A program made the translations under genes and the position numbers. DNA of 63,116 nucleotides, the filler included, from Sphaeroforma arctica JP610 (lineage: Eukaryota), in NCBI RefSeq assembly GCF_001186125.1. It is 6 parts of 3 records of this genome, joined end to end, with 100 filler letters (N's around TTAATTAATTAA, not from the genome) between each part and the next. Parts side by side here need not be neighbours in the genome. Positions count along the whole stretch, not along the records: positions 8,261 to 29,045 come from NW_014040538.1; 5 more parts are not named here. One strand, written 5' to 3'. Below the pieces are notes generated by a model. It had not been told where the DNA came from. It searched no databases and worked only from the letters and a program-made list of their open reading frames with translations. Below are positions 11,381 through 48,761 of the stretch, one piece after another (position 1 is the stretch's first letter; every line of letters begins with the position of its first letter).

Positions 11381-14300
11381 TTACAAGACGAGTGTACATT
11401 TAGCCATACTAACACATGTGTTTCCTCTGTTTGAGTTCAATAGTGGCCCAATGGTGTTCACTTGGCCTTTGTCGCCTGGGAATGCGACTGTGATTGGTTG
11501 TAAGGGATGGAATCCCTTTTTGTATATCTTATTTTTGAGAGATGGTACGCATACTTCGATGAACTTATGTACATGTTGTTCGATTTGTGGCCAATCATGT
11601 CCATCCGTCTGCAACATGTTTACCGTTTCCTCAGAAGTGTAATCTCCCAAGTTTTGCTACTGCTCGATAATGTTGACACGTGGCGCGTATTCTGTTGCCT
11701 GTGGCGCATCTTCAGATGGAACTGGATGTAATGCTGCAACATGTATGGCAGGTTGTTCCCGCGTTGAGTCAAAGTATGGAGATTTCATTCCTATCTTTGC
11801 TACCAATGCGACGACCCATGGGGTCTTGTCACATGCTTTTGTGCCTTCTTTGAGGAACGTTTTGTTCGTGTTTCCCACTAGCATCGGGTCTTCTTCTGGT
11901 ACAGATGCGAGTTTTGGAAACCAAGTTGCATAGAGGTAGTAGGGTACACATATCGTGATACTTGTTGCCTCTTCAATGACTTTGTCAACGACGTCAGGTA
12001 TGAGTTTCCATGGTGGGTTCGCCCATGCATTCACTTCCTGCTCCCACCTTTGTAGTAGCGCATTTTGTTCTTTGATGTAGTATTTATCTGTGTGTGCATT
12101 GTGAGCCGATGCGATCAGAACTACTGTGAATTCCCCAAACCGACGTTTAGTTTCTTGGTAGAATCTGGGGTGTAACATCCAGTCTATGGCTATTATGGTT
12201 ATGGGCATGTTAGTTTCCAAGGTTGTGTACTTTTGGCTGTTACGTGTTGTTTCCTTCGCTTCCTTTAATACCTTTTGGTTTTAGTGTTAGAAGTGTCTTC
12301 GTGTAGACGCGACAATATATCTACCATCTGGTTGCCCTTGCCTGGGATGTGTATGACGGAGAAGTGGTGGTGGAATGTTTTTGCTATCCATTTGGCTAGC
12401 ATTGGGTGTAACATCTGTTGACTGTTCATTGGCGTGAGTGCTTTATGATCTGTCCATAGTGTTATGTCCCATCCTTTAATGTATTCGGTTTAATGCTCCA
12501 GGCTATTTACCAGTGCTAGTAGCTCCTTGGTATTCGTGCCATAGCGTTGTTGTGCTGGATTCATGTCTTTCGAGAAGTAGAGAACATCCTCCTATGCCAT
12601 TGTCACTGGCATCGTTTATGATTTGAAACGGTACCCCATCAACAGGGTAGACTAGTGTCGCCTAATATGCGATGGATTCTTTGAGTTCTTCCCACTTCTT
12701 TTTGATAGTCCATGACACGAATATGTTCAGGTTCATTTTTTCTTTCAATAGGTTCCGGAATTGTTTTGTAGTGTCGGCAAAGTTGGGGACATGGTCGCCT
12801 ATATAGTTTGCTAGTCCCACCGCTGTGTGCAGATCTCTTTTTGATCCGGGTAGTGGCCAGTCTTTTTTTCAGGATCTTCTTTGAGTCCCTGTGTGGTTAC
12901 TTTCACATCTAGAATGTTGACCACCATGAACGCGAAGGCACACTTATTGTGATTGAGTCGGAACTTTGCTCCATTCAGTCGCTTGATTACTTCACGAACT
13001 GTCTTGTGGTGTTCTTCTATAAGAATCGCAATGAATATGTCATCTACATACAGCTGCACACCTTTGATGTCTATGAGCAGGTTTGCTATGACTGTCTGGA
13101 ACTGTGCTGTGAGTGAGTGTAGCCCAAACGGCGCTGACTTGAATGAGTACTCCGCTCCTCTCCACAAGAATGTGAAGTGTTGGCTTGCTTAGTCTACTAT
13201 GAAGTGGTGAAACCCTCCTATGAGATCTAACTTTGAAAATAATTGCGCTTCTTAAAGGTGGTGTAGTACTTCCTTTATTTTAGGTGACACAAACTTATCT
13301 TGTTCGTATTGGTATTTGATCTCGCGTAAGTCTAGACATGTTCTTACTTTCTTGAGAAGACCTGGATGGTCATGTTCACCTGATGATAACAACGGTAGAT
13401 TTACTGTTGTTGGAGTAGTTTGTATGTAGATGTGCCCATCTGTAAGCCACTTCCATAGAGCCTGGTAGGTTGCAATGTATGTCAGGAGGTATGTTCGCAT
13501 TGGTATCTAAAAGGTCTGTAAGTGACTCTCTGTAATATTCTTGTTCATGCTCCGGGTCTTCTTCATGTGGCGTGAGGAGTGATTCCCTTTTTTGCATCTG
13601 TTGGTATAAGTGGATTGATTAATCCTGCTATGTTTATACCTATGTATGATAGAAAGTCCATACCAAGAAGAATTGGTGTCTTCTTGTCTGGTAGATCCAA
13701 CACTTCAAAGCACTGAGAGATTTTCCTACCTCCATAATTAATGTCACAAACTTGAGTTGACCCTGTGCGTTGTATTTTTGCATCTGTTTCTGCTAATTAT
13801 ATATAGACCGGTTGCGCTCTGATGGAGAGATGTAGTTCTGATACTACACTCTTGTCCATGCATGAGCGTCGTACGCCCGAGTCTACTAGTGCGTTGTATG
13901 TATTGCCATTAATTTGTATGTCAATGTGTAAACGTTGGTCTCGTGGGACGGGAAGTAAGGATAAAGGTTAGTAATCTATATCATTTCCATTTATTAACAA
14001 CGTTTCTTCATCTGTATATACATTGAGCCTGTCAACCAGGTCAATCATGTTTCCTTCCGCCCACCAGTTGTTTCAGTGCTCATCACCTGCTGTGATGTCT
14101 TCTACCTTGCCGGAGGTAATGTACAGTCTTGCTATTTGCACGTCCCTTTTGACCTGTTCCTCAGCCTGCTTGGCCTGATTCGAAGCCTTCATGGGACATT
14201 TACTTAATCGGTGTGGGGCTGGCATCACTTTACAATAAGGACATGCACGCTCCTCACGCGTCACTTTCTTCTTTTGGGCCTGTCCTATTGGCTTGGTTTG

Positions 14301-16380
14301 ATTGGGTGCACCGATGTCTGGTTTCTGCCGTTTGTTCGTAGTAATAATGCTACTCTGAGCCTGGCTGTGGTTGGTTGTCTGTGCATTGTGTCGCTTGCGC
14401 TGCTCTCTTAGCTGCTCTATTAGCAACCGACCGCCTTGCACCCTGGCTGTCGTTCTTATGTTTGCCTCAGTCATAGCGTGAAGCGCAGTGTGCTTCGTAT
14501 CCGATAAGTGACCCTCACTTCCATCAGGTTGTTATTCTACCCTGATGAGAGCATCCACTTGCGCGTGTTTTCCTTTGGACCTTGAGAATTTGCAAGTGTG
14601 TAGGTTCTCTGTCTGAGTTGCGGTAACGCTAGTCTAACATCTCCATTGCTTTATGCGCTCGTTCTGTGCGCACTTCAACGTTCGGTGTCTTATTCTGCAT
14701 GTCATTGAAAACTTTCTCTAACAGATAGTCTACTGGATGGTGTCTGAGTCTGTCAATAATGATTCAATTACACTGTTCAGGATCGTTGGAATGCTTGGTT
14801 GTCTGTGTTTCAGAGTCTCTTAGCGTATTGAGCACTGCCTTGGTCTTCTCTATTGCATCAGCGGAATCTAATAGATTTCTTACTAGTGCTGGGTACTGAC
14901 ATAGTGGCATCGAATTTATTAAGAATAAGTCTCTTACATTGTATAGTGAGTTCTATCATGTCTTCGCAATTTTCTATCTTGTAAAAACTATCTTTGGGTA
15001 GCTTCGAAAATTCCAAAGTCTTTAGTAGTTTTACGAGGGCTGGTTGATTTGTCTGGTCACCTAAGTATGAACGCATGAGCTCTAACTCACTAATGTATTG
15101 ACTTATTCGAATGAGTTCATCCTCCTCATCGCCACCAAACTCGTTGATAACTAAATCATATCGTCGTAGAGCTCCTCATCCACGAGTGGCATGCGTCGTT
15201 CTGGCTGTTGGACATGAATGCCTACTCTCAACTTGTGTAGAGTCGGTATAGACACCGATACTGTCTGTTCCAGTTTGGAAACAAATATACTCGCCAGGAC
15301 GTGGTTGTCTTGACAGATGTGTTTGTCTATTTCTAAACACATCGCTGAGGCTAGTATGGACCCCCCCCCCCAGGTGTAGGCTAGCTCGACCCACTACCTG
15401 GGCTTGGCCCCCTTACTGAGCTGACATTTGCGCCATCTGTGCCCACACCCTCTTCTTCACCACCATACACGCCTGTTCTGGTTGCCGTTGGCATCTTGAG
15501 ATCTCTGTGATGGGGTGTGGTTATTGCAAGTTATTAGTGAAGACTCTTGCTATCTTTTGTGCGAATGCGCGCTTCACCCCTCTTGTCTTTCGTAATAGTT
15601 TGTGTGAAATCAATAAAAGTTGAATATAACTCACTTACTTTTATTGTGGTCTCGCTTTGCTGTATTTCCGTGTGAAGTGTTTCCCGTTCTGTGTGGTACG
15701 GTAGCTTGTTGCGTTCCTTCCTGTAATTGGGAAGGTTTATTTTTATTTCGTCATATGAGGGATTACTTATGATTATTCCGTCAAATGAGAAATTATTTTC
15801 TCATGATACTTAATGAGATGTTCGGTCCTAGTGACGTCACTGGGAAAAGTTCGGTCCTGGTAACGTCATCTCTTGATGTTTGGTCCTGTATTGAACTGAG
15901 TCTAAGTGGAGGTCACCCCTTGATGTTCGGTCCTGTATCGAACTGTGGTTTGTACCTCACTTCTTGTATTCAATAACTTGTGCTGGTGTGTCAATTTGAT
16001 ACCTTGTGTTGATGTGTGAGTCGTTCGCCTGTTTGGGCTATCCCTTGTATAAACCTTGTTTAGACCTGTGGACTGTCCTTATGTTGTGTCGATATTCTTG
16101 TGTGATCTTCCCTCATATGGCTTTGTCGCAAGCCTGGCTCTGCGTGTCTTGTTTGTGCACGTGATGTTGCTTGAGTTTTCGATTCAATGTGTGAATGCTC
16201 GATCTAAACATTCTCGTCTGTGTAATAGTTTTATGGTCTTTACGCATGTGTAATAGCTCTGTGGTTCTTTAGTGATGTTCGCTTAGAATCTTTTTGCTCT
16301 ACTTTTCGTTTATTTGTTTGTCATGTCCCTGTCCATCTCTGTTGATGTCCTTTTATCACTTACCTGGGAAAATATAATAG
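11381..16380 (-). mobile_element. Degenerate Ty3/gypsy-type LTR retrotransposon, copy 1: gag-ZnF-PR-RT-RNaseH-Dam MTase-integrase (3'-truncated)
   Basis: Zn knuckle CPYC..H....C (14073..14474); protease ALVDSG (~13885) and ILLGMDFL; RT KVRTCLDLR, FSKLDL, APFGL, YVDDI; RNase H DASDNGIG, KELLAL, TDHKAL; MTase with NPPW; integrase zinc-finger remnant and HPLQPITVAFP..GPL. Many stops and frameshifts. Confidence 0.88.
11740..12200 (-). CDS. Dam-like DNA N6-adenine methyltransferase domain within the retroelement pol
   Basis: DWMLHP..F....RFG.FTVVLIAS..NA...Y......NAL...W....WANPPW.LI..VV.K.....ITICVP....ATWF; NPPW at 12008-12019. Confidence 0.85.
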
Positions 16381-17559
16381 TAATCCAATATCTACACGTA
16401 CCCTTCTGGATCATTGGTAATTACCGTAGCTGCTCGTTCGAGATTTGTCCTGCGATTTAATAGAAGAGTATGTGTAGAGATTGCGAACACACATAAGTTT
16501 TCACATGAACGTCTACAGTGGCATGCCACAGTAGTAGTGAACATCTATCCAATACATTAGAAAGCCCTAGCACGACCAATACGCGATCACGCACACAAAA
16601 GTGTTACATGAGATCGAAAGCAAATAATACGATCGCAGCTAAATAAGGCTACACAATTGATATTACAAGGCACAAATGAGCAGCTTTAAAAAGCAGTTAG
16701 ATCCAAGTGACAAGAGACAGCGTGTATATATACAAATACGAAGCAATGACACACCACTAGTATAGTATTCAGAGATACAGTACAGTATACAGAGTTCGAT
16801 ACAGTGGTTGGTACAAGACATGGCGTAGAAGAACAAACATTCGCAGGTGCAACATTCACATCAAATAAAAACAGTGGAAGTTCAGTACAGGACCAAATAT
16901 TACACAAGAGAAAGTATATATCTCAAATAGCCCACGTGTCAAAACAAGGCCTAATTCTCATATGAGAAAATCGGTACAACTGAAATCACATATGACAAAA
17001 AAACTATTGCCACGCGTGGTAAAACAAGTCACATATTAATATCGCACATGATAAAACAAGCAAAGCTGATTTCACATGTGAAGAAATATGCTCAACCAAC
17101 AAACAATAAAAGCAACTTCCCAATCACAGGGAGGAACGCAATAAGCTACCACACAACACAGGACGGTAAACATTTCACACAGAAGTGCAGCAAAGCGTGA
17201 TACCGACAAAAGTAAGTGAGATAAATTCAATTTATTATTATTTTAATTGTTATTAGCTAAGAAAGAGAGGGGTGGGGGGGTGGGTGAAGCGCTTTTTCGC
17301 AACGAATATATAACAAGTCTTTACTTATATTACTAATAATCTGGGATACATACACACCAACACAGACAACTTAAGATGCCAACAGCAACCAGAGCAGGGG
17401 CGTGTCTGGGTAGCTGAGATGGTTCCCATAGGCGGTGAACCTATTTCTTTTTTGCTAGGATTATAGAATTACTATTATTACGCCTCACCCCACTCTAGAG
17501 TGGGGTGAGTGTTCGTGGGATAGAGATATGCGACTGAATAACAGTGTAATATCATTCTT

Positions 17560-18040
17560 AATATATACTCTTTAGCTTATCGACCTACTTATGGTGTGGT
17601 GGCCTTTACTTTTATACTCACTTTGAAAGTCGACTCTGTCAGGGATGAGAGGTCACTAATGATTACCCCGTAGGGGGATCATATCATTTCAAGGCAATGA
17701 TAGTGATACCCAGGGGAGTGAATGATACTAACACTCAGTGAGATCCCTGCGGGATCTGACGGGATCCTTTATGTAGGTCAGTTTGTCTGGGGCGGAGCTC
17801 GTCTAAAAGGAAACGAAGTGGTAAATATGGCAGGCTTCAGCGGGTTAGAAACCAGCATTAAAACGTAAGAGCACATGCCAGCCTCAATATGAGACTTACT
17901 AGTCGAACAGATACGAAAAAAAGGTTCTAATGAACTGCTAATTTAAGTGGTTTAGTTAGCGATCAACGAATAAAAGTAACATTAGGGATAACAGGCTAGT
18001 CACGGCCAAGAGTCCACATCTACGCCGTGGTTCGGCACCT
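17560..18040 (+). rRNA. rnl: Mitochondrial LSU rRNA fragment (domain V, peptidyl-transferase region), NUMT pseudogene
   Basis: agtttgtctggggcgg (P-loop region) and atcaacgaataaaag..gggataacaggct..ccaagagtccacatc.acg..gtggttcggcacct, colinear with 23S positions ~2240-2500. The 5' boundary is approximate. Confidence 0.9.
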
Positions 18041-19300
18041 TACTATATCGGGGTTGACCGTCTATCGGACTGTACTCTCAGTGACAGTGACTCAGGTGCA
18101 ATAGTAAAACATAAAGCTAATTGCTTGGACATCCCCCTCGGAGGGGATTATTAGCAGGGTGTACATGTAAAAATAGCGGGTTCCTAATAGTAGTTGCACA
18201 GTTAACGTATATTATAAGCGCATTAACGTACTAACGTGTATACTCGTAATCTTGGAATACGTTTAACGAATTGGACATGAACACGAACTGAGAAATTCAA
18301 GATTCTGAACATGTAAAAGTACTCAGTAGAGTATGGGACTCTCCTGTGGACAATTAGGTGGCTTTCCAAATATAGATTGGGTTTTCCACTGAAATTAGAA
18401 TTGTACATAGTATAGGAACGACACCAATCTGATACCTGAAAATGACACTTTAGGAATCTCTAATTAATGGGAGTACCATGAGAGAGGGTCTCAGGCATGA
18501 AATGGTTGTTGGTACAAACCTATAATATTATTCAATAATGATCTCATAGCAAGATACTCCACTGAGAAAAGGACAGGATAAGAGTTGTTAGAATTTAGGA
18601 CAACTTGGTTTTGATTCCTCCTAGCCAGCCAACTAGATGTGCTCGTCTATGCCTTAAATGGAATGGGTAGCTAGGTACCAAGCGATGGGGTATAGGTGCA
18701 GATGTATACTGCACCAGCTTGGTGTTTTGGTTTGATTTTTTATTTTCTTAAGTTGGACTTAGAGAGGTACTTTATTTTAGTTTGATTGGGAGATTGTTTC
18801 GAGGCGTGAAATGTAAGCTATGCGTCCAATGAAATGATATCTAATCTTAGTAACTAAAGCATAAATAAATCTAGACCGAAGTAGTGAGTGATTAGAGCGG
18901 AGCTTATAAACAATAGTCTCAGTCTAAAATCCCCTATTCTTTTGCTCATTACCAAGGGCTGCTAAACTTATTTAACATTTAACATTTCAACGTACTATTA
19001 ACGTATTTTAACGTATTAACGTAAACATCTTGGTATCGTATAGTCTGTCTAGAGGAGACCGACTTTTACACAGGGTAATACAAAATAGATTAAATTGCTT
19101 CATAGAGGACATAAGAAAATTGGTCAGTAAGTAAAGTTGATGGTCAGGCAGGGCCGTCCTACACCTCCGGTACCCCTTCGGGGCAATGATTACCCGTAGG
19201 GGAATCATGGTGGAATGCAGGAGCCCTCCTACACCTCCGGTACCCCTTCGGGGCAATGATAGAGGTGATGCTATAGTCCCCAACCACCCTTCATACCACG
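18041..19300 (+). ncRNA. Probable group I intron (fragmentary) at LSU position ~2500
   Basis: rRNA stops after GGCACCU. The following gggttgacc can form P1 with a U-G pair; P-like aattgcttggac (~18120), Q-like attagcagg (~18150) and S-like gatgctatagtcc (~19267) are present. No clear R element found. Confidence 0.55.
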
Positions 19301-19394
19301 TAGACGTTGTAATACACGAACCCAATTATCTTTTATACCCTACTACACTCCGATAAGATGTTGTACTACTACACTTTACTGCTCTGAAAACTAT

Positions 19395-19682
19395 TGCCAC
19401 TAGACTTAGAGATAGACCAGACCATAGAACTGCTAGCTATGTGATGGAAAACGTTCATCCCTCTGAATTACTAGCTAATCTTAAGTTGAGCTATTCATCA
19501 AACTAATACCTTTTTTTATTTTGCAAAAAGACAGGCAAAGACTAGTGCCAGCAGCCGCGGTAATACTGGTTCCTCTAGTCTATCTCATGATTATTCGGTG
19601 TAGAGGGTGTGCGGGTGGGTTTTCACGTTTTAACTAAATGACCAGGGCTTAACCTTGGTGAAATGGTTAAAAAGGGTAAAAC
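19395..19682 (+). rRNA. rns: Mitochondrial SSU rRNA fragment, NUMT pseudogene
   Basis: Exact gtgccagcagccgcggtaatac (19545-19566), with colinear downstream helices (tgtagagggtg.gc.ggtgg; aaatgaccagggcttaaccttgg). Confidence 0.9.
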
Positions 19683-22449
19683 TATGGCGGTGAAGGGGGT
19701 GACGCAAACGCGAATGGCGCGAGCGACAGCCCAGCGGGAGGGTCAACCCCAGGTAGTAGCTCAAGTCTACCAACACCTAATGGGGTACCCACACAGGCGT
19801 CAGCAATGCGTTTTGAAATCGATAAGAGTATTTGTCAAGGCAATTACTTGTTGATCAGTAGGTTCGTATCCAAGCTGAAAACAGCAGCACCTGTAGCTTT
19901 TGCGAGTCTACACAAAATGAGAGTATGCATTCACGATCAGCGACCAAACGTCGCATGCTACTGGTAGACGCAGAACTCAGAAAGAGATATGACCAAACTT
20001 TCAACGTGTGTAGTGATGACAAGGAGGATGAAGTAATTTAATCAGTCAATACATCAGCAAGCTAGCAATCCTGCGTACACAATTAGGTGATAAAGTTAAA
20101 GAACCAGCACTATCCAAACTACTAAAGATCCCAGTTGGTTGTATTTGGTTAATAGAGGTAAATTTTTCCTGAGCATTGAATTTTTTTACGAGTCCAATTA
20201 GCTCATCACTGACCGAGTTTCCGGGGCTTTAGCCCCATCAAGGTTACAAACAAAATACCTGTTGCCCTCCCTGCATACTAATTTGTATGGTCCGCCATAT
20301 GGTGTAGTAATCTTATTCATTTCACCTTGATAACGGACCATGACAATGTCCCATTCCTGGAAGTGTAGTGACGAGTGATTCTCATTTTGTATCTGTAAAT
20401 ATAAGTGGATTGATTAATCCTGCTATGTATGTATATACCTGTGTATGGCAAAATGTTCATACCAAGAAGTATCGATGTCTTCTTGTCTGGGAGGTCCAAC
20501 ACTAAAAAACACTAGGATGTTTTCCTTCCTCCATAACGTTGTATCATAACGTTGTATTCTTGCATCTGTTTGAGCTAATTGTATATAACCCAGGTGCGCT
20601 CTGACCGAGCGATATAGTTCAGTTACCACACTCTTGTCCATACATGAGCGTTATGCACCCGAGTCTACTAGTTCATTGTATGTATCACCAGTAATGTGTA
20701 TGTGAATGTGTAAACGTTGGTTTCGTGCTGTGGGAAGTAAAGATGAAAGTTGGTAATGTATATCATTTACATTTATTAACAACGTCTCTTCAAATGTATA
20801 TACATTGAGCCTAACAGCCAGGTCGATCATGTTTGCTTCCGCCCACCAGTTGTTTCAGTGTTCCTCACCTTCTGTGATGTGTTCCACCTTGCCGGAGGTA
20901 TTAGACAATCTTGCTATATGCACAACGTGTTTGACACGTTCCTCGGCCTGCTTGGCCTGGCTCGATGGCTTCATGGGACATTGACTGAACCGATGCGGGG
21001 CTGGTATCACCTTACAATAAGGACATGCACGCTCCTCGCGCGCCCCTTTATTCTCTTGGGGTTGTCTTATTGGTTTGGTTTGCTTGGGTACACCGTTGTC
21101 CGGTTTGTGCCGTTTGGTCGTAATAGTTGTGCTACTCTGAGCCCGACTGTGGTTAGTTGTTTGCGGATGGTGTCGCTTCTGACGCTCTCTATCAACCGAT
21201 CTGCCTGCACTTTGACTGCTGCTCTTTTGGTTGCTTCAGTAAGAGGGTAGAGTACAGTGTGTTTCATATCCGATATGTGACCTTCACTTCCATCAGATTG
21301 CTTGTCTGCCCTAATGACAGCGTTCACTTTCTCTTGTTGTCCATAGTACGTGAGTGCTTGGCATCTTTGGACCTTGAGAATTTGCAAATGTATAGGCTCT
21401 TTGTCTGAGTTGCGGTAACGCTCCTCAAACACCTCCATTGTTCTATGAACTTGCTCTGTGCACACCTATACGTTCAGTGTCTTGTTCTGCATGTCATTGA
21501 GAAACTTCTTTAACAGATAGTTTACTGGATGGTGTCTGATTATGTAAATAAGGATTCTATTGAATTGTTTAGGATCCTTTGAGTGCTTGGTTATCTGTGT
21601 TTCAGAGTCTCGTGACTCATTGAGCACTGGATTGGTCTTCTCCGTTGCATCAGTGGAGTCTAGATGATATCTCACTAGTGCTTGGTACTGACATAGTGGC
21701 AAAGACTTGGCTAATGAGGTCTCTGCATTGTTTAGTGAAATCTACAATGTCTTCCACGATTTTCCATTTTGAAGTAACTATTACTAGGTAGCTTCGTAAT
21801 TTCTGAGGTCTTTAGTATTTTTTCAAGTGCAGGTTCCTTTATTCTATCGCCTAAGCATGAACGCATGAATTCTAACTCACTGATATACTGACTGATTTGA
21901 TTAAGTTTATCTTCTTCATCGTCACCACACTCATTGATAGCTAGATCGTATCACCTTCTGATCTCATTGTCGACAATTGACATGCGTCGTTCTGGCTGTT
22001 GATCGTGAATGCCCACTCTCATCTTGTGCAGAGTGGCTATGGACACCGGTGCAGTCTGTTCTAATTTGGATACAAATCTACCAACCAGGACATAGTTGCC
22101 TTGTAAGATGCTCATGTTTATTTCTAAACGCATTGCTGAAGCCAAAAATTCCTTCTTCACCACCATACGCGTCTGCTCTGGTTGCCGTTGGCATCTTGAA
22201 GGGTCTGTATTGGTGTGTGGAAATTGTAGGTTATTTGTAAGAATCATACTATTATTGTGGTCTCGTTTTGCTGCACTTCCGTGTGAAGTTTTTACCGTTC
22301 ATCTGTGATGCGGTAGCTTGTTGCGTTCCTTCCTGTAACTGGGTGGGGTTGGACGATGTTTGTTAGTCAAGCTTATTTCGTCACGTGTGGACTTTACTTG
22401 TGATTATTCCATCATATGAGAAATTTCTCTTTTGTGATCTCAAAGAATT

Positions 22450-22605
22450 GTTCGGTCCTCGTGACGTCACTGGGAAAGTTCGGTCCTGTCGACGTCATCG
22501 AGGACGTTCGGTCCTGTTGACGTCACCGAGGAAGTTCGGTCCTGTTGACATCACCGAGGAAGTTCGGTCCGGTTGACGTCACCACTGGATGTTCGGTCCA
22601 GTACC
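22450..22605. repeat. ~28-bp tandem array containing TGACGTCA-like motifs in the retroelement 5' region
   Basis: ttcggtcct-nn-tgacgtcac-ngaggaag repeated about five times; a shorter array is in copy 1 at 15820-15940. Confidence 0.9.
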
Positions 22606-37900: not shown

Positions 37901-38644
37901 GCCCTTGATGATCGTCGTCATGCGCAGGCGTTTGCCCGGCGCCACCTCCACCAGTCCATGGTCGTGCTCATGCGCGTCCGATACCTTAGCCTGCATGATG
38001 GTCACGTGTCTTGGGTCGTGTTGCATGCGTAGATTATTGGCCCACTGTTGCTGGTTGTACGTGCTGCTGATGTAGCCCGTGATATCGTTATCCGCTAGCG
38101 GCATGCCATCCATGACCGCCAGGTAGATAAACTCAACGTCCAGGTCGTGGCACTGCTGCTCCTGATCGTACAGACTCTCCAGTGTGCGCTGCAGTTGGGT
38201 GCGCGTGTTGATCCTGTTCCCCTCCGTAAATCCCGCAAACGATACCACTACCCCCACGACCAGTTTGCGCTGCTTAGATCTGGGTGTGAAGTACGAGCCA
38301 CCCTGTACCGGCGCAAGCCCCGACCACTGTGAAATCACCGACTGCGTCTTCACTGCAGGCGCCGAACTCAGCACCAGATCATCTCTGACCTTCAGCATTG
38401 AAACCTCTGTATGCCTCATATCGTCCTCTGAGCCTCCCACCAGGCCTAAGACACTGCCGATTTTAGCTCCGTAACTTGCTATTACATAACCACTCCTCCT
38501 TGTGGCTGCTTTGAATCGACCCCAGCGAGACGGATCCACCTCCACCTCGATCTCGTCTGTAAGATACACAGTGTCATCGTCTGTGTGATCCTTCCATACT
38601 AAATCTGGATGCAGTTTCTTATCCTTGGGTTTATTGAGGGTGAT
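34971..38644 (-). CDS. Chitin synthase-like paralog 1 (degenerate motifs) fused to an LHFPL/claudin-like domain; exons 38644-36329 and 36107-34971, 5' exon not located (possibly in the gap)
   Basis: GT2 core with KVNSHEWFF, LAADNVLS and QRKRW; multiple TM helices; phase-0 intron gtaagt..ttttaccag; C-terminal LFPASW..LCG....YNPGDCSVGWSY. Confidence 0.88.
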
Positions 38645-38820
38645 CTGTAAGATTGAGTTTTAAAATGAATCGGTAGGTGAGTGAATCTTCAGAGTCAGCT
38701 ATCCATAAAAAGGTTATACAGCGGGGTACGGTTGACATACGGAAATTCGCATACGTACATCTACCTCATGGAGTAGGCGTGAGATATACTTATATTATTT
38801 TTATTATTATTACTATTATA

Positions 38821-38852
<32 letters not shown>

Positions 38853-40099
38853 CATATGTATATATGTGTATGTATATNNNNNNNNNNNNNNNNNNNNNNN
38901 NNNNNNNNNNNNNNNNNNNNNNNNNNNNNNNNNNNNNNNNNNNNNNNNNNNNNNNNNNNNNNNNNNNNNNNNNNNNNNNNNNNNNNNNNNNNNNNNNNNN
39001 NNNNNNNNNNNNNNNNNNNNNNNNNNNNNNNNNNNNNNNNNNNNNNNNNNNNNNNNNNNNNNNNNNNNNNNNNNNNNNNNNNNNNNNNNNNNNNNNNNNN
39101 NNNNNNNNNNNNNNNNNNNNNNNNNNNNNNNNNNNNNNNNNNNNNNNNNNNNNNNNNNNNNNNNNNNNNNNNNNNNNNNNNNNNNNNNNNNNNNNNNNNN
39201 NNNNNNNNNNNNNNNNNNNNNNNNNNNNNNNNNNNNNNNNNNNNNNNNNNNNNNNNNNNNNNNNNNNNNNNNNNNNNNNNNNNNNNNNNNNNNNNNNNNN
39301 NNNNNNNNNNNNNNNNNNNNNNNNNNNNNNNNNNNNNNNNNNNNNNNNNNNNNNNNNNNNNNNNNNNNNNNNNNNNNNNNNNNNNNNNNNNNNNNNNNNN
39401 NNNNNNNNNNNNNNNNNNNNNNNNNNNNNNNNNNNNNNNNNNNNNNNNNNNNNNNNNNNNNNNNNNNNNNNNNNNNNNNNNNNNNNNNNNNNNNNNNNNN
39501 NNNNNNNNNNNNNNNNNNNNNNNNNNNNNNNNNNNNNNNNNNNNNNNNNNNNNNNNNNNNNNNNNNNNNNNNNNNNNNNNNNNNNNNNNNNNNNNNNNNN
39601 NNNNNNNNNNNNNNNNNNNNNNNNNNNNNNNNNNNNNNNNNNNNNNNNNNNNNNNNNNNNNNNNNNNNNNNNNNNNNNNNNNNNNNNNNNNNNNNNNNNN
39701 NNNNNNNNNTATAAATAGTATATTAATTATACATATATATAGATATATATATATATATATAAATGTATATATGTATATATGTATATATATATATATTGGC
39801 ATATATCTTTACCTATATATCTATATAAATTTATATATATATAGTTTATACACACATAAATATATATACATTGTATACATATCTTATACGTATATATGTA
39901 TATATATATATTATGTATACATACTATAGATGTACATGTATATATGTGTATATATGTGTGTATATATATATATATATTAAATATGCGTATAAATATGGGT
40001 GTGTGTTTGTGCGTGCGAGTGTGTGTGCGCGTATGTATATATCTATATTTGTGTTTGCGTGCGTGCGTATGTCTCGTATCCAATCTGTCACGGAAAATC

Positions 40100-43000
40100 C
40101 AGCAACTCGTTTGCCTAAGTACATCCTCGGCCAAGATACTTACCTGTGCCGAGTTGTAACTGAGGACGGCGGTGAAGAATGAAACCACGATGAGCCAGTA
40201 TGACCAGTCCAACGAGCAGTCACCTGGATTGTAGTAATGTGCCGACTCACCACAGAGATAACCGCTGCTGGCGCTAACCTCTACATCCCACCACCCCACC
40301 CGGTTTGTTTTTAGGTCGAAGAAACTCATAGGGAATAGAAGGATAGCCGCCATCAGCGCGCAGATTGTGAGCCACACGTACAGCACACTGACGCCGTACA
40401 CACGCGACCTGTCCTTCGTGCACAGTGCATAGAGGCATGCGAGCATGATCAAGCCCAGGAAGATCACACACCCGAATATCAGTAATAGGGTGTAGGCCCA
40501 AAGCTGGTTCGGGAAATGCCACATCAGATCCGACCCCCACAACATCGTTTCGGATTTGTAGGGTACAACAGTGTGGAAGTCAAATTCGAAAAACAGGAGT
40601 CCATAGTACATATCCACGGAGCCACCCTCCACCGAGGTGGTGATGTCGGCTTTCATTTGTACGAAGGTCTGGTTTAGGAAGCTTTTCTTCTGGTATCTAG
40701 CCTTGTATGTGGTGTCCGGTGGGGTCGATATACCTACATACACTCTATCTGTAAGGTAATGATGGATTAACTAATATGAGGTCCTGTAGATTGCACACAT
40801 ACAATATGCATACAACTGTCACAATATACGTTCATATCCGTGATCTGAGCAACGGATATTGCACAGTCAATGCCAACCGGAGGAAAGTTATCGCGACAAC
40901 ATATTTATACATGGTCTACAACATACCGTAATCATCAGTGTATGTGAGATTCAAGTACGACAGGAAGTCGTGCATGACGTTCGTCAACTTATTTCCAATC
41001 GACCCATCCTCATTGACCGTGTAGTTAGTCGTAATAGTAGTGACAACACTGTTGTTGACATAGTAGGCATTGATACGATGGTTTGGCAAGAAGATCTTGC
41101 CCTCGAGCTCGCGTAAAGCATCCAATCGGTATAGTGTTGTCACTGTTACGACCTCGGTTCGAACATAGTTGTATATATCCATTACGTTGGCATCTTCAAT
41201 CGTCTCGTTGCTGCTCTTCAGAACGAAACTGTGTATATCCGTCGCGTTCGCATCTTCCAATGTCTCGCTGCTACTCTTGATAACACTGTCTTGTAATGTA
41301 TAGAACTGTGTACAAGTAGAAGTAGATAGCCTAAAGATTAGTTCTAATGCATACGATAGTGCCGAGTATAAATGCTGACAAAACTCTCTTATTTTAGGAA
41401 AGCACTAATCAAACACACCCAACCAAGCTCAATTATGCAACGCCTGCCCTAGTTCTATGCAATTCCCAATGCTACTAAATCAGTAAATTTAGTCTGGCGG
41501 TCGGTTATTTTGCTTCTGGGGCGTATGCGCGAGAAAGTTATTATCACAACAAGCAATGTGTTCTTCTATAGGGCTGGTCACTTACGGTTTCGTTATAGTC
41601 TGACCTGAAGATGTCTTCCCACTTCATGAAGGTTTCATTCAGAGTAACGGTGATGTTGAACCGCTGCTCCACTGGAAACGAATTCGTCAGCCACGACGTT
41701 GTGAATAGGCCTGTGAAAACACAGGCCACTGTGGTGGCGAAGAGCGTTGCACTCAGAATCTGCATCGATCGCCTAGTAAGATTCCTGACACCAGCCGACA
41801 ATATGTGCTCGGTGTAGAACAAATAGAAGCCGAAGGATAGGATCTGTTGGAAGAGAGCAATGCCCACAAAAACCATGGACATCACCATTAGACCCTGCAA
41901 GCTGTTGTAGCGCACAAAGAGTCCGCACACTGTAAAGTTCAGGCACATGACTAGGAGTAGCACTACCAACCCTATCCTTCTGTGCAGTATCCCTGTCTTA
42001 ACCGATTTCTTGCCCTTCGCTGATCCGCTTGATGGTCGATTTCCCCATGACAAATCCCACACACGGCAATAGGCATACGCAGAAAACCACGGTATGAATA
42101 TCGGCCAGAAGGCACAGAATTGAAAGAATGAGAACACCATCATAATAAACACGTCCAGGCTATGGAGCAGAGCCAAGAAGAAGGGCATGAATACGGCTAG
42201 AAGTAGAACCAGAATGGCTATGGGATCGGCGTTGGCAAATGCTGCGGTCAAACCGGCAACCACCAGCATATACGATATGCTATTCCAAACCACCACCGCA
42301 TTATACAAGCTTCTCGAGAATTTCGAGAAAAAATGCGTGAGACAGAATACTATATACAGGAGCGCCCCACAGCTGGTAATTCCCCAGGCGACGAGTTGAT
42401 TGTACCCGTCACCGCCAATATTCAAGGACTTGACGGCAAAGTATATTAGAGCCGCGAAGACACCAGGTGAGACAGTTCTGACAGCGTACAAAATAGTTTG
42501 TAACAGAAGCTGACTATAGATGACGATTTTGAACCACCAAGAGTGTGAGCCTCGGAAAATAACTCCGGGCGAGAAGAACAACAGATACAGGTACGATGCA
42601 GACGTTCCATTGATCCACCGTCGACGTTGTGTGAGAAAGCTTTTGCTGTCAGTCTCTGCTTCGGTGTAGAAAACTGCTTTGGGTACCCATCTTGTATATT
42701 TCCCAGTCATAAGACAAGCAGCGTAACTAAGGATACGATCCTCAGCGAGTAGTAGATTGCCCATAATTAAGCCATCTTCTGGTTTGATGCTGTTGACGTA
42801 GTCGATGTAGTAATCCATCGGCTTACCCCCCACAACACTCATTCGCCACAAACCGGCTGGTCCAGGTATCACAGGAAGCATACCAATCAGCGAAAATGCT
42901 CCTAAGAAACTGGAAATGGAGGCTTCATAATCGTATGCTTGCACAGCCCTGTACCACATCTGCATTAACCCCTCCGTCCTTAGAGACTGCATTGATGAAG

Positions 43001-44415
43001 ACATGACACGCTGACGCCCAGTAACAGCGCTAACGTCAGGATGCGTGTTTAAATAGTCGATGAGGTAATATAAACATCCCTGTGATAATGAAGACAAGAC
43101 AGATACAGTTAGTTAGATACAGAAAAAGGTACTTTATAATTCAGTGCCTGAAGAATAGTTACTACTGAGTCTCACAAAACGTATAACGTTAGATAAAATT
43201 AGGTGAATGCCGAGCGTAGACTGTCTAGAAGATGGCTACCACCAAGTCTGACTAAAGAGTCTCACTAAATACGATAAAGCTAGTAAGAAATAGTAATTCT
43301 GGTAAGCGTTACGGGTGTATAGTCCGAAGAGATTAATTTCTATCTAGCCAAACAAACAAAAATGCCTAAAATGTTAAGTGCCAAGCGCAAAGTTGTCCGA
43401 AGGATATTTGCTACTGGGCCGCAGAAAAAAAATCGAGTTAATTAAAAACAGCAAGGAAGTCCGGTAAGTGTCAAGCGTAGAATGCCTGTAGGAAGCTACT
43501 ACCAAGATACACAAAAACAACAGCTAAAGTACTAGTGAGATCCACAAAAAAAATAGTTAAAGTAAGGTATTTCCGGTAGGTGCAGGCACAGAATGCCTGG
43601 AGAATAGTTGCTACTACTGAGTCAACTGAAGTTGGCTAGATATAGTGGGATATTTTCGACGTGTCAAACGTAGAGTACCTGGAGCATAGCTACTACTGAG
43701 TCACTAGGAGAAGGAGGATAATTGTAAAATATACCTGTGCGTAGAGCGTCCCGCAGTCAGTCCCGAACGCATAGTCGATCTCGTATTCCGAACAGAATGC
43801 CACAAAAAACCATTCATGTGAGTTCGTTTTCCGCATATTAATTCCTTTCACTAAAGTTGTCAGTCGCATATGCTTTCCGGGAGCTATTTCAACCAGACCG
43901 TGATCTCCCAATTCATCTGTCGGCGCGGCTTGGAGTACAGATACGTACGAACGATCTTCACTCCTCAACATTGCATCGGCCCAGTGCGAATCGTTATATA
44001 TTTCATTTATGTACTGTATTGTGGATTCATCAGCCTCTGATATTCCGTCCAGTATCGCTAAATACACGAACTCAACACCTAAGTCTCTACATTCTATTTC
44101 CTGACCATGTAGTGACTCTAGAGTACGTTTCAATTCCTGCCTACCTTCATTGTAGAACGGTATCAACACACCTACAACAGTTTTGGCTTGTCTTTCCCTT
44201 GGTTTGAAGTATCCTTTACCTTTCAGTGGCGCCAATACGGGATAGGTTGTCACTAGCTTTGGTTTCCTTTTACAGGGTGGTGAATATGACCCTGTACCTT
44301 TGATGTCGTATGTATAGTTTGTGATTATGCTCGTGTCATCGGTTATATCATTATGTATGGAAGGACACGTGTTGGTGGATATTGTGTCAAAATCTCCTGT
44401 ATTTGTAAACGCCAT
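40100..44415 (-). CDS. chs: Chitin synthase paralog 2 fused to an LHFPL/claudin-like domain; exons 44415-43735, 43079-41586, 41305-40927, 40748-~40144 (3' end uncertain)
   Basis: PFYNE, ILDG, KTNSH, TDCGT, VIPG, LAEDRIL, QRRRW and SWG motifs; all introns GT..AG and frame-consistent. Confidence 0.92.
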
Positions 44416-45404
44416 TGTTGAATACTATGGTTAACTATATCCCGAGTTTTACAACCCATGTACAACTTTATTCTAAATACTTGATCTAACGTTCTGCTGG
44501 AGACAACTATATCGTCTTTAATAGTATATGGAAATTGTTATTTTTAAAGCGTCTAAGGCTCTATGAAATAATAAAATATGGCAAGCTTTGCAATTGCCAT
44601 AGCAAATACTGTACAAAGGATATGTATTCCAAAAACAACCTGAATGTGTATTTTTCTAGAAATTAATTTAGTTCATATTGCAATCTTTTGAGTGCTGAAA
44701 AAAATATTTACAAGACTTGGGAGTAAAGATTATACCTGTGGTATTTATTGTTTCATCAGTGGTTAAAACAATAAAATCCGTAAAAATGTGTTTGTTTGTT
44801 GATTGTTTTGTTTTTTTGTTTTTTTTTAAATACTGGGTCCGGTGACTCCGGTCAAGTGATTAAGGCTAAATACATACACACCTGCTCTTCATTTTTTGGA
44901 AATATAAAGAAAAAAAAGGATACAGTTTTGACTACTCCGGGAGTACTTTCGAATTTATTTAGACTTTATTTGAAACAAAACCCTTTCCAATTTTGAATTT
45001 TCTGTTTTGTATTATTGAGTTTGAGGGGGTTTTACGATGTTTCTATTTTTTTTGGCGGTATTTATGCCGGATTTCCACTGTTCCATTGGCATTTTGACCG
45101 CTTGGCCTTGCCGTGATGCCGTCGCTTGCACTTTCCTTCATCCTCACTTTTACCAAATATTTATAAATACATCATGTGTATTTGTACGGGATGTGTGCTC
45201 AGTTTTAAAAACAAATGAACAGAAGCTGTTACGAACAGTGCGAAGTCTGCGAAACAAATCTTCAATCGTATGAGAGATAGAATCAAAGTCTGCTGCGCTT
45301 TGCAGACCGAATATTGATCTATTACGGGCCTAGAGCTTCTAATCGTTACTGTATCAGCCATTCTTCAGTGTCAGCAATATCACAAATTTTATAAATACTC
45401 CAGT

Positions 45405-46831
45405 ATGAGATTCCTTGCTGGCTTTTTGGTTTGTATACTGGGAGCACATGCTGTCGAGAGTCGTGCAACATATGTAGCAGGCGTTCTATCCGTGGATGAA
45501 TTCCTGAACCTGACGATAGGAGAATACATAGCAATGACCGACACTCTATTGATAGCGGATATAAGTCCTGTCTGTTCCGCTGGACTGAATGCGATGAAAG
45601 CGACATCCAAGATTCTACCATTGGTATGTGCAGCTGTCGGCTCCGCGCCTATAGAAACTACAACAGAAAACTCTGTAGAGATAACGACGACGGAGGAGGT
45701 ATCAATAATAGGGGAGATAGTAGAAAGCGAATCGAGCACCCTCACGTCACTGAATACCATTGAAGCAAGTGCAACAGATACAACCGTGAATACAACAATC
45801 GTATACAACGGAACAGGTATTGAATCGATAATCAACCGGGCTACATTTGAGGAGCTTTTCTCACTGAGATTCAACGCTGAAGCTTGTCAAAAGGGAGTGG
45901 ATGTGCTCACTTATGACAACTTTGCCACAGCTATAAATTATTACTATCCGGAAATGGTGGTAAATAATGGGACCCGTGATCAGAAATATCGGAATGTAGC
46001 GGCATTCCTTGCTCAGATGTCTCAGGAAACATCCGGGCGTGGCGAAGGTATGTATTCATTTGACAACTCGTCACAATAATCGTGTCATCTTGCATGATCT
46101 CATATATGTGCTATTCGCTCATCGATAATTTTTTTACTAATCTACAACTTTCCAACATTGCAGGTGATCCATATTTATGGGGCCTCTGCTTTATCGAAGA
46201 GTTAATATGTGATGAGAGCTGTCCACAATATACTGACGAAGGTTCTTGGGAATACCCACCAGTACCGGGGGTGTCATACCATGGGCGAGGGCCTATTCAG
46301 ATCTCTTGGAATTACAACTACGGGCTTCTGAGTGAAGCGTTGTTCGATCACAAGGAGATTTTATTAAATAAGCCAGAAATGCTCGTAACTGATGGTGTAG
46401 TGGCATTCCGGTCTGCACTATGGTTTTGGACGACCCAGCAATGGGCGAAGCCATCGTGCTTTGATATTATGATGGAAACCGCTCCCCCGTGCCAACATGC
46501 CGGGCGAGTCCCAGGATTTGGATGGACCACCAATGTGATAAATGGTATGTGTATGCGATATTCGTTCTTTTTCTCTTCGAACAAGCCTTCTGTTCATAGT
46601 GTGTTCCCTGGACTCGACTCATACGTAGACTTCATTGCACCAATAGGTGGGCTAGAATGTGGCATAGAAACACCACAGAAGGTGGAAAACAGAGTGCAAT
46701 ACTACCTGTCAATAACAAGTGCACTGGACGTAGATCCTGGTAAATATTTGTACTGTGATGAGATGGCGAATTATAGCACCGACTTTGACTGTCCGGCACC
46801 GGAAACTACACAAGATAGCTTGGCGCAGTAA
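45405..46831 (+). CDS. Secreted GH19 chitinase with Thr/Glu-rich linker; exons 45405-46047, 46164-46544, 46647-46831
   Basis: Signal peptide; AAFLAQMSQETSG, WGLCFIEE, YHGRGPIQISWNYNYG, AFRSALWFW, KPSC, INGGLECG (after splicing). Confidence 0.93.
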
Positions 46832-47670
46832 GCACCAGCTGCTATTACATAATAGAGTACATGATGGTCGCACACTCTACAACCTCGGTGGTGCAAACTG
46901 CACTGTGTGTCTTGAAGCCCACCGACGCGGCGAATAGAAGATAAACCTCTCAGCAGAAGTCACGATTTGTAATCTGGCCGTCTACATTACATATAGAGAA
47001 CATTTGGGGGCGGACACAACTACCGATAGTCACCGCCACCACACAATATACGTACCATTGCGTTTGGTATGATCGTATCAATATTGAGATGGTTGCGTAG
47101 ATATGATTAAATAATATTAAAGATCGATTGTTTGGCGGGAGCAACTATGCATAGGAGTAACTACACCTATGTATACACGCATTTATTTTCGTGTGTGCGC
47201 AAGCATTCATGCCTTGAAAGACATCAGTATATGCACGGAAAAAATGACTTTTCTTCTTTCAGATACATATGTGTGTGTGTGTGCGTGCGCGTGTCCGTAT
47301 ATATATATAAGTATATAGGGATACATGTATAAACTCAACACACATGATTGCCACTGCAACTGTCTTCAAGTCGTTCTCGATAAATATGTACTTCTGTATA
47401 GATAAGTTTATATATATGTATAAGTCTATCTATGTGTCTATGTATGTATGTGAACATATAGGTACTTATGTATTTATACATATATATTTGTATGCATGTA
47501 AATATGTATATATATATTTATATAAATATATCTATAGATATAAATATATATATGTGTGTGTGTATTTATATGTATAAATATATATAAATATATATACATT
47601 CACATATATGTACTCATATATGTGTGTCTGTGTCTGCGTATATATGTATATTTATATTTATATATATATA

Positions 47671-47719
<49 letters not shown>

Positions 47720-47952
47720 TGTATTTGTGTATGTATATATATATGCATACAATATATATATATATGTGTGTGCGTGTGTTTGTATGTATCTATATATTTA
47801 TGTATATATATATATATTCATATCAAATAAATATATGTCTGTATCCGTGTCGGTGTCTGTAAAAATATACATATATATATATACGTACGTATGTATGTAT
47901 ATGTCTATTTACATATCTATAGATGTATATATATATATATATACATACATTC

Positions 47953-47987
<35 letters not shown>

Positions 47988-48109
47988 CTTTTATTTAGAT
48001 AAGTATACACAATAATATATATAAATATATATATATATATTTGCATTTACGTCTGTAAATGTATATATATATATATATATGTGTGTGTATCTATATATAT
48101 ATATATATA

Positions 48110-48150
<41 letters not shown>

Positions 48151-48699
48151 GTATAGTACTACGTATGTATGTATAGTAAATATATATATAGTTGGTTTCG
48201 GGTTAGATGTATGTGTGTATTATATAGTAGGTAGTAGTAGGTATATATAGTAAACCTAACTACCAACACAACTAGTGTAGTTCNNNNNNNNNNNNNNNNN
48301 NNNNNNNNNNNNNNNNNNNNNNNNNNNNNNNNNNNNNNNNNNNNNNNNNNNNNNNNNNNNNNNNNNNNNNNNNNNNNNNNNNNNNNNNNNNNNNNNNNNN
48401 NNNNNNNNNNNNNNNNNNNNNNNNNNNNNNNNNNNNNNNNNNNNNNNNNNNNNNNNNNNNNNNNNNNNNNNNNNNNNNNNNNNNNNNNNNNNNNNNNNNN
48501 NNNNNNNNNNNNNNNNNNNNNNNNNNNNNNNNNNNNNNNNNNNNNNNNNNNNNNNNNNNNNNNNNNNNNNNNNNNNNNNNNNNNNNNNNNNNNNNNNNNN
48601 NNNNNNNNNNNNNNNNNNNNNNNNNNNNNNNNNNNNNNNNNNNNNNNNNNNNNNNNNNNNNNNNNNNNNNNNNNNNNNNNNNNNNNNNNNNNNNNNNNN

Positions 48700-48761
<62 letters not shown>

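What the first reader, a model, noticed from the sequence alone, without database searches (positions are those of the whole stretch)
11381..14474. Ty3/gypsy retrotransposon with a Dam-like 6mA methyltransferase between RNase H and integrase
Seen: domain order Zn-knuckle, aspartic protease (LVDSG), RT (YVDD), RNase H, NPPW-type MTase, then the integrase N-terminus, with a GPY/F module in copy 2. Knowledge: Dam-like MTases after RNase H are typical of DIRS tyrosine-recombinase elements, which generally lack protease and DDE integrase. Inference: an integrase-type LTR element captured the MTase and might adenine-methylate its own cDNA to protect it or mimic active chromatin. This copy is decayed, and its motif I reads VVLIAS instead of DLFAS.
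Basis: partly seen in the sequence, partly recalled or inferred. Interest (0 to 1): 0.75.

Follow-up and report, generated by a model that had tools for sequence, protein, structure and literature searches.

The report
Decayed methyltransferase-carrying gypsy retrotransposon
This is a broken copy of a repeated gypsy-type jumping gene, likely from an ichthyosporean protist, whose polyprotein carries an adenine-methyltransferase domain; a 2026 preprint already described this kind of element, and what the domain methylates is still untested (likely the element's own RNA or RNA-DNA intermediate).

Summary
On the minus strand a decayed Ty3/gypsy element reads gag with Zn-knuckle, protease, RT, RNase H, a Dam-family methyltransferase (Pfam E 3.6e-12, NPPW intact) and the start of a DDE integrase. 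The pol region has 9 stops and 6 frameshifts. The methyltransferase is not a nested insertion: intact 1288-aa relatives carry it in frame with DLFA and NPPW, and other genomic copies bridge its borders. RT and methyltransferase trees both place it in one clade with Abeoforma whisleri elements; its closest named fragments are from Sphaeroforma arctica. This matches the 'Ichthyosporean DAM-LTR' lineage of bioRxiv 10.64898/2026.05.21.726589, which proposes the same 6mA-mimicry idea. The scan noted such elements before on other DNA. Refinements found here: (1) intact relatives end in a degenerate chromodomain, although the preprint says the lineage lacks one; (2) the closest solved fold is the RNA cap methyltransferase PCIF1/CAPAM, ahead of T4 or E. 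coli Dam, which favours an RNA or RNA:DNA substrate; (3) gag and pol are separated by a family-wide in-frame TGA; (4) two Ty1/copia polyproteins also carry the domain. Activity, LTRs and 6mA were not testable. Verdict: already known; modest interest.

The parts
14073..15494 (-). gag (frameshifted), start codon at 15494; Zn-knuckle C-x2-C-x6-H-x4-C at 14243-14196
   Evidence: Translation; shared with copy 2 at 53-94% aa identity by segment; start context shared by three copies
14073..14075 (-). In-frame TGA between gag and pol, conserved across the family; read-through inferred
   Evidence: Same stop and context in copy 2 at 20857-20855. No other letter at 5% or more and no indel at these three places in 4 of 4 runs, while neighbouring places vary
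13629..13934 (-). Aspartic protease (LVDSG), one stop
   Evidence: 71.6% identical to P0002; P0002 hits gag-asp_proteas at E 3.9e-11
12898..13350 (-). Reverse transcriptase (YVDD at 13050-13039), two stops
   Evidence: 78.8% identical to P0002; Pfam RVT_1; Ty3/gypsy placement
12382..12712 (-). RNase H, two stops, one frameshift, deletions
   Evidence: 79.1% identical to P0002
11771..12214 (-). Dam-family (PF05869) N6-adenine methyltransferase domain; NPPW intact; motif I Asp replaced by Val in this copy
   Evidence: Pfam E 3.6e-12; 69.6% identical to P0002, no stop or frameshift; motif alignment
11381..11680 (-). Integrase zinc-binding region and start of the DDE core; cut by a microsatellite and an N gap
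   Evidence: 61.5% identical to P0002 over 91 aligned residues; alignment runs on to about 11381
15495..15900 (-). 5' untranslated region with short tandem repeats, shared with copies 2 and 3; LTR and PBS not delimited
   Evidence: summed contig depth falls to the single-copy level by about 16100-16300
20136..22603 (-). Copy 2: 5' region, gag, same TGA, protease, internal deletion to GPY/F; ends a few codons before the chromodomain position
   Evidence: 77.8% nt identity over 1810 bases; tblastn of P0001 and P0002
17038..20134 (+). Copy 3: 5' region and gag fragments (17038-17409 and 19714-20134), split by a 2.3-kb insert with rRNA-like pieces

Best explanation
This is a dead copy of a repeated Ty3/gypsy retrotransposon family whose Pol carries a Dam-family methyltransferase in frame between RNase H and integrase, and in intact elements that enzyme likely methylates adenines of the element's own reverse-transcription intermediate (RNA:DNA hybrid or single-stranded cDNA), so that new insertions would arrive marked like active host chromatin. 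Shown: the domain order, the decay, the intact relatives with both catalytic motifs, and a joint RT and methyltransferase clade with Abeoforma elements. Inferred: host is Sphaeroforma arctica or a close relative; Pol is made by occasional read-through of the conserved gag/pol TGA; the protease releases or trims the methyltransferase inside the particle; host AMT1 maintains the mark after integration (the preprint's model); the degenerate C-terminal chromodomain of intact relatives helps choose integration sites without a full methyl-lysine cage. Confidence in the identity is about 0.93, in the methylation mechanism about 0.45.
For: Intact single-ORF relatives P0001 and P0002 (1288 aa) and P0003 (995 aa): the only 3 hits among 357 candidates, with RT-RH-Dam-IN in one frame and protease too in the two long ones. 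Contigs from other genomic copies bridge RNase H-Dam (run X11 record 10) and Dam-integrase (X11 record 9, X5 record 25), and most summed contig depth reads the motif I Asp codon in 4 of 4 runs (X1 5910 of 6120). Dam is as conserved as RT between distant families (P0002 vs P0003: 60.1% vs 59.3%; Dam-integrase linker 14.3%). NPP[W/F] in 17 of 17 clade rows; motif I Asp in 15 of 15 relatives that cover it. RT clade of 14 rows, all Dam-positive, SH-aLRT 98. Dam clade of 17 rows, 100/96, includes Abeoforma P0107, P0108, P0113. Nearest named fragments are S. arctica proteins at 60-71%. [quoted passage not shown] The preprint reports more 6mA and higher expression on S. arctica DAM-LTRs.
Against: No activity has been shown: heterologous expression in Dam-deficient E. 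coli gave no 6mA (preprint). Iyer et al. (PMC4738411, passages) consider DIRS1 methyltransferase domains likely inactive. The 6mA enrichment is correlative and could follow from transcription and host AMT1 alone. No stable RNA structure was found after the TGA (z -1.2 to +1.0), so read-through has no positive signal. The CAPAM match leads DIMT1 (Z 9.7) by only 1.1, and the model is of relative P0005, not of this copy. LTRs could not be shown.
Confidence: 0.6

Rival explanations
1. The domain is an RNA methyltransferase like PCIF1/CAPAM. It would methylate the element's own transcript (cap-adjacent or internal A) to improve its stability, translation or packaging, and genomic 6mA on copies would be a by-product of transcription.
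For: Top methyltransferase in the fold search is zebrafish CAPAM (Z 10.8); the next are mostly rRNA m6A/m62A enzymes; T4 Dam 8.3 and E. coli Dam 8.2 rank lower. Iyer et al. place DIRS1 methyltransferases in the PCIF1 clade. PCIF1 prefers ssRNA. The dsDNA assay in E. coli was negative.
Against: The domain is about 145 aa and matches only residues 492-652 of the 482-residue CAPAM chain, and no WW hit was found in the relatives. The preprint derives these domains from prokaryotic DNA methyltransferases. The LTR versions are associated with AMT1-bearing hosts (9 of 13).
Confidence: 0.2
2. The domain is catalytically dead or non-catalytic and is kept as a nucleic-acid- or SAM-binding module, or as a structural spacer in Pol.
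For: Negative heterologous assay. Iyer et al. call DIRS1 copies likely inactive. Four Dam-less elements sit in the sister RT clade (P0008, P0010, P0013, P0084), so close relatives do without it.
Against: Motif I Asp in 15 of 15 and NPP[W/F] in 17 of 17 clade rows over deep divergence is the pattern expected of a working active site.
Confidence: 0.17
3. The methyltransferase is a nested DIRS fragment or an assembly chimera particular to this copy.
For: The assembly is gappy and the copy is cut by a gap.
Against: In-frame domain in intact relatives from three sources. Other copies bridge both borders. No tyrosine recombinase found in the window (best E 0.27). Congruent RT and Dam clades.
Confidence: 0.02

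Closest known systems
Ichthyosporean DAM-LTR lineage (Fernandez-Moreno et al., bioRxiv 10.64898/2026.05.21.726589; main text read in full, supplements closed)
   Same: Ty3/gypsy organisation with a DIRS-type Dam domain in Pol. RT and Dam both group with Abeoforma whisleri elements; nearest named fragments come from Sphaeroforma arctica, one of the three species named. Same NPP motif and the same proposed 6mA function.
   Different: The preprint says the lineage lacks chromodomains; intact relatives here, including the Abeoforma element P0108, end in a degenerate one. Its main text has no hit for 'gag', 'readthrough' or 'copia'. Whether this exact family is in its tables could not be checked.
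DIRS1-type tyrosine-recombinase retrotransposons with an MT domain after RNase H (PMC4738411, passages)
   Same: Same methyltransferase family in the same position after RNase H; 38 DIRS-type RT proteins among 160 Dam-positive rows.
   Different: This element has a protease and a DDE integrase, no recombinase in the window, and an RT far from DIRS (path length 3.8 versus 1.8 to the nearest other gypsy).
PCIF1/CAPAM cap-specific adenosine N6-methyltransferase (PDB 6irx)
   Same: Best methyltransferase fold match: Z 10.8, rmsd 2.7 over 129 residues. Placed in one clade with DIRS methyltransferases by Iyer et al..
   Different: 13% identity; only the core matches; no WW domain; embedded in a retroelement polyprotein.
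Chromoviruses with group II chromodomains (PMC3350952, passages)
   Same: Chromodomain fold at the integrase C-terminus with the W45 equivalent kept and an incomplete aromatic cage.
   Different: Group II was described only in plant elements. Here the loop carrying Y48 is mostly deleted, and the RT does not group with the named Tf2, plant or fish chromovirus proteins in the tree. The domain lies in relatives, not in this window.

Membership tests
Ty3/gypsy (Metaviridae) LTR retrotransposon | Pol order protease-RT-RNase H-integrase | tested here: met
Ty3/gypsy (Metaviridae) LTR retrotransposon | RT of Ty3/gypsy type, not DIRS type | tested here: met
   Best PDB sequence hit is Ty3 Gag-Pol, E 1.8e-68. 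DIRS on their own side of a long branch, SH-aLRT 99. Nesting within a DIRS subclade rejected, p-AU 0.0005. Where the DIRS outgroup attaches is unresolved, p-AU 0.50.
Ty3/gypsy (Metaviridae) LTR retrotransposon | DDE integrase with zinc-binding region and GPY/F module | tested here: met
   Complete in relatives (rve, Integrase_H2C2, three acidic motifs, GPYK). N-terminal part in copy 1, GPY/F in copy 2.
Ty3/gypsy (Metaviridae) LTR retrotransposon | Paired LTRs, PBS, PPT, target-site duplication | not testable with these tools
Ichthyosporean DAM-LTR lineage | Dam (PF05869) domain within a Ty3/gypsy Pol | tested here: met
Ichthyosporean DAM-LTR lineage | Dam-domain clade shared with Abeoforma and Sphaeroforma elements | tested here: met
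   17-row clade, 100/96, with Abeoforma P0107, P0108, P0113; the group was named after seeing the quick tree. S. arctica fragments are the nearest named hits but were not in the tree.
Ichthyosporean DAM-LTR lineage | No chromodomain at the preprint's detection threshold (hmmsearch E 1e-5) | tested here: met
   Pfam Chromo only at E 0.015 (P0001) and 0.0042 (P0003), none for P0002, P0006, P0108. More sensitive tests do show a degenerate chromodomain, also in the Abeoforma element, so the absence looks like a threshold effect.
Ichthyosporean DAM-LTR lineage | Ichthyosporean host | tested here: inconclusive
   Inferred from the nearest named homologues and a chitin-synthase gene array; the organism names of the sequencing runs are coded
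Ichthyosporean DAM-LTR lineage | Raised 6mA and expression on copies | not testable with these tools
   No modification data available
DIRS1-type retrotransposon | Tyrosine recombinase; no protease or DDE integrase | tested here: not met
   No recombinase hit in the window; protease and integrase present
Active N6-adenine methyltransferase (this copy) | Motif I acidic residue and NPP[Y/W/F] | tested here: not met
   NPPW intact but motif I Asp is Val in this copy; both motifs are present in relatives
Group I (HP1-like) chromodomain, intact relatives | Three-residue aromatic cage Y24, W45, Y48 | tested here: not met
   W45 in 8 of 8, Y24 equivalent aromatic in 5 of 8 (not in P0001 or P0003), Y48 not in register in any (definition)
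PCIF1/CAPAM | WW domain plus large methyltransferase with cap specificity | tested here: not met
   Only the core fold matches; no WW hit. A works-like lead, not membership.

The most novel reading that the evidence does not exclude
Ichthyosporean DAM-LTRs are cryptic chromodomain elements whose 'Dam' is really a PCIF1-like RNA or RNA:DNA-hybrid methyltransferase, made by gag/pol stop read-through and acting inside the particle: a retrotransposon that writes its own m6A mark on RNA or hybrid and steers integration with a cage-less chromodomain. The same module has also been captured by Ty1/copia elements, which the preprint's main text does not mention.
Probability: 0.25. Interest if true: 0.65.

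Novelty: already known. Interest (0 to 1): 0.27.

Why it matters
As given, the finding repeats a 2026 preprint, probably in one of its study species, and this copy is dead. Its remaining value lies in four testable refinements. (1) A PCIF1-like fold offers a reason for the negative dsDNA assay and names the substrates to try (RNA, RNA:DNA hybrid, ssDNA). (2) A degenerate chromodomain would merge the 'non-chromodomain' ichthyosporean class with chromodomain-bearing DAM-LTRs and raises the question of integration targeting. (3) A conserved gag/pol stop sets how much enzyme is made. (4) Copia elements with the domain would widen the number of independent captures.

Tried and rejected
No whole genome is held for this window, so no copy census, LTR, PBS, target-site duplication or dN/dS was possible. 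Protein-level conservation by domain was used as a proxy. The metagenome scan gave 6 loci: one 1.5-kb piece of the P0003 family and five DIRS loci, but no intact element DNA. No RNA holder was listed among 24 runs; this is no evidence on expression. Summed contig depth is far higher over the element than over the flank (X1: 32,000-50,000 over Dam versus 194), but the tool warns it is no copy number, so no number of copies is claimed. A single-sequence AlphaFold model of the window's domain failed (pLDDT 36.7) and was not used. A sequence search of that domain against the PDB found nothing (best E 0.51). Foldseek on the 686-residue model returned only integrases in its listed rows, and the 15-protein profile search listed only RT and integrase chains in its best 60. 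No stable RNA structure after the gag/pol stop. Deep relationships among Dam domains are unresolved: joining this clade with the RT-sister DAM-LTRs (p-AU 0.55) or with the copia domains (p-AU 0.70) is not rejected, so the number of captures and the donor are not claimed. An AU test with all DIRS beside this clade was not rejected (p 0.50), which only shows that the outgroup's attachment point is unresolved. ApT is neither depleted nor enriched in the copy (observed/expected 0.99). The protein atlas gave no answer. No tRNA genes in the window. Literature: 'copia + retrotransposon + DNA adenine methyltransferase' gave 6 papers, the 5 listed unrelated by title and abstract start; 'Sphaeroforma + LTR retrotransposon + chromodomain' gave 2, the preprint and a Capsaspora paper seen only in the listing. 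The preprint's supplements were not seen and may hold copia or chromodomain details.
Full report
Verdict. This copy is dead. Four smaller refinements came out of the follow-up.

Observation. The minus strand of 15494-11381 reads gag, Zn-knuckle (C-x2-C-x6-H-x4-C), an in-frame TGA, protease (LVDSG), RT (YVDD), RNase H, a Dam-family domain, and the integrase zinc-binding region with the first core strands; a microsatellite and an N gap then cut it. The Dam hit passes Pfam's cut-off (46.7 bits, E 3.6e-12). A frameshift-aware alignment to intact relative P0002, with X at the breaks, gives 9 stops and 6 frameshifts and domain identities of 71.6 (protease), 78.8 (RT), 79.1 (RNase H), 69.6 (Dam) and 61.5% (integrase N-part). 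NPPW is intact; motif I reads VVLIAS against VDLFAA or VDLFAE. Two more fragments lie in the window: copy 2, with an internal deletion joining protease to GPY/F, and copy 3 on the plus strand.

A family trait, not an insertion. A search with the Dam ORF among longer proteins gave 3 hits of 357 candidates: P0001 and P0002 (1288 aa, 85% identical to each other) and P0003 (995 aa, about 59%). All carry RT, RNase H, Dam and integrase in one frame. The DNA is held by 20 of 24 listed runs, from 7 studies. Contigs of other copies bridge the RNase H-Dam border (X11 record 10, 68 differing letters) and the Dam-integrase border (X11 record 9, X5 record 25). Most summed depth reads the motif I Asp codon in 4 of 4 runs, so its loss is particular to this copy. 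Between P0002 and P0003 the Dam domain is as conserved as RT (60.1 vs 59.3%), while the Dam-integrase linker is 14.3%. This is a protein-level proxy for selection; dN/dS could not be computed.

Placement. An RT-RNase H search returned 98 proteins, all LTR-type; of the 95 beyond the first three, 2 carry Dam. The best PDB sequence match is Ty3 Gag-Pol. A phmmer search with the window's domain found 588 proteins at E up to 0.001, of which 150 were listed. Of 254 rows screened, 160 were Dam-positive; 87 without RT or integrase were dropped, and 71 rows were used in a first tree. In an RT tree of 71 rows the window copy sits in a 14-row clade, all Dam-positive (SH-aLRT 98), with 14 DIRS on their own long branch. 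Nesting the clade inside a DIRS subclade is rejected (p-AU 0.0005), while the attachment point of the DIRS outgroup is unresolved (p-AU 0.50). In a careful Dam tree of 65 rows (five long or unstable rows and one near-duplicate left out) the same elements form a 17-row clade at 100/96; I named this group after seeing the quick tree. The clade includes three Abeoforma whisleri proteins, and the nearest named fragments are Sphaeroforma arctica proteins at 60-71%. One capture followed by vertical inheritance fits this lineage; deeper Dam relationships are unresolved. The host is inferred to be S. arctica or a close relative.

What is known. bioRxiv 10.64898/2026.05.21.726589 (main text read in full; supplements not seen) defines five DAM-LTR lineages. 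One is ichthyosporean (Pirum, Abeoforma, S. arctica). It reports more 6mA and higher expression on such copies, a negative E. coli assay, and a model in which the enzyme marks RNA-DNA intermediates and host AMT1 maintains the mark. The scan holds six earlier notes on similar elements in other genomes, all pointing to the same preprint; I had found the preprint before reading them.

Refinement 1, chromodomain. The preprint says this lineage lacks chromodomains. Intact relatives give sub-threshold Pfam Chromo hits at the C-terminus, and a four-sequence profile hits an HP1-family chromodomain at E 7.4e-4. With a profile of ten canonical retroelement chromodomains, 8 of 14 clade proteins scored above 8 bits, each above all 200 shuffles of its tail; these include Abeoforma P0108 at 27 bits. 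Three more had weak hits at the same place, two are truncated, and one (P0109) had none. The profile-profile probability of 98.7% is inflated because the rows were chosen with the same profile. An AlphaFold model of P0005 shows three strands and a helix at pLDDT 70-82 and matches the SUV39H1 chromodomain over 59 of 62 residues (Z 7.9, rmsd 2.0); the tool warns that Z under 8 can be a common arrangement. The aromatic cage is incomplete, as in group II chromodomains (PMC3350952 passages). The domain is not in this window.

Refinement 2, substrate. In the same model the methyltransferase (pLDDT about 80-90) matches PCIF1/CAPAM best (Z 10.8), then DIMT1 (9.7) and other mostly rRNA enzymes, with T4 Dam at 8.3 and E. 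coli Dam at 8.2. Iyer et al. placed DIRS1 methyltransferases in the PCIF1 clade and thought them likely inactive (PMC4738411 passages). PCIF1 acts in the order ssRNA > hybrid > ssDNA > dsDNA (PMC9178792 abstract and passages). A fold does not show function, but it would explain the negative dsDNA assay. Against inactivity: motif I Asp in 15 of 15 relatives that cover it and NPP[W/F] in 17 of 17 rows.

Refinement 3, gag/pol stop. Both in-window copies have the same TGA and context. In 4 of 4 runs no other letter reaches 5% at its three places and there are no indels, while neighbouring places vary. The P0001 and P0002 ORFs begin a few codons after this point. Read-through is inferred; that in-frame gag/pol stops are read through in some retroelements is recalled, and one search was seen as a listing only. 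No RNA structure supports it, and a spliced or re-initiated pol message is not excluded.

Refinement 4, copia. Among 35 proteins scanned (29 chosen by length, 6), P0170 and P0190 are Ty1/copia polyproteins (RVT_2) with the same domain at two different positions. The preprint's main text has no hit for 'copia', and a literature search showed nothing relevant in its listing. Their DNA was not seen.

Mechanism. Most likely, intact elements make Pol by read-through and package the methyltransferase. It would methylate the hybrid or single-stranded cDNA, and the integrated copy would then recruit host maintenance and sit in permissive chromatin. The anatomy and family membership are shown; every functional step is inferred. 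Scores: already known, interest 0.27; most novel reading probability 0.25, interest 0.65.

Noticed in passing
P0170 (2098 aa) and P0190 (1838 aa), hits: Ty1/copia polyproteins (RVT_2, copia gag, Pol_BBD, SH3) carrying the Dam-family domain with NPPW: after the Zn-knuckle in P0170, between protease and integrase in P0190. Their domains group together (100/99). Not mentioned in the preprint's main text. Hosts unknown.
   Followed up: partly
P0136, P0139, P0234, P0240: Gypsy-like polyproteins with the domain elsewhere: after an Exo_endo_phos endonuclease and before RT (P0136, P0139), before the protease (P0234), after the integrase (P0240).
   Followed up: no
RT tree: A 24-row RT clade (SH-aLRT 99) holds 20 Dam-positive elements and 4 Dam-less chromodomain elements; one capture with losses is not rejected against separate captures.
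   Followed up: partly
window 17410-19713: A 2.3-kb insert splitting copy 3, with a bacterial-type LSU rRNA piece (17745-18055, E 2.5e-38) and an SSU fragment (19533-19571); probably mitochondrial-derived DNA. No clear gene under code 4.
   Followed up: partly
window 10800-11150: AT-rich stretch beyond the gap with extreme summed contig depth (X1 779,507 versus 194 on single-copy flank); organellar-like or very high-copy repeat.
   Followed up: no
window 34971-53531: Tandem array of three chitin-synthase-like genes, each followed by an LHFPL-like membrane-protein ORF, with a GH19 chitinase gene at 45318-46831 on the other strand.
   Followed up: no
window 11381-15900: CpG observed/expected 0.69 in copy 1 and 0.76 in copy 2, against 0.93-0.98 in neighbouring chitin-synthase ORFs; mild depletion, cause untested.
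   Followed up: no
window 20134-20136: Copies 2 and 3 meet tail to tail with almost no spacer, which suggests a recombination or inversion junction.
   Followed up: no
window 5553-6632, 7806-8084, 29285-29851: An ORF with an internal duplicated domain and a signal-peptide-like start; an aldo-keto-reductase-like exon (recognised by eye); a 2Fe-2S ferredoxin domain (E 2.9e-10).
   Followed up: no
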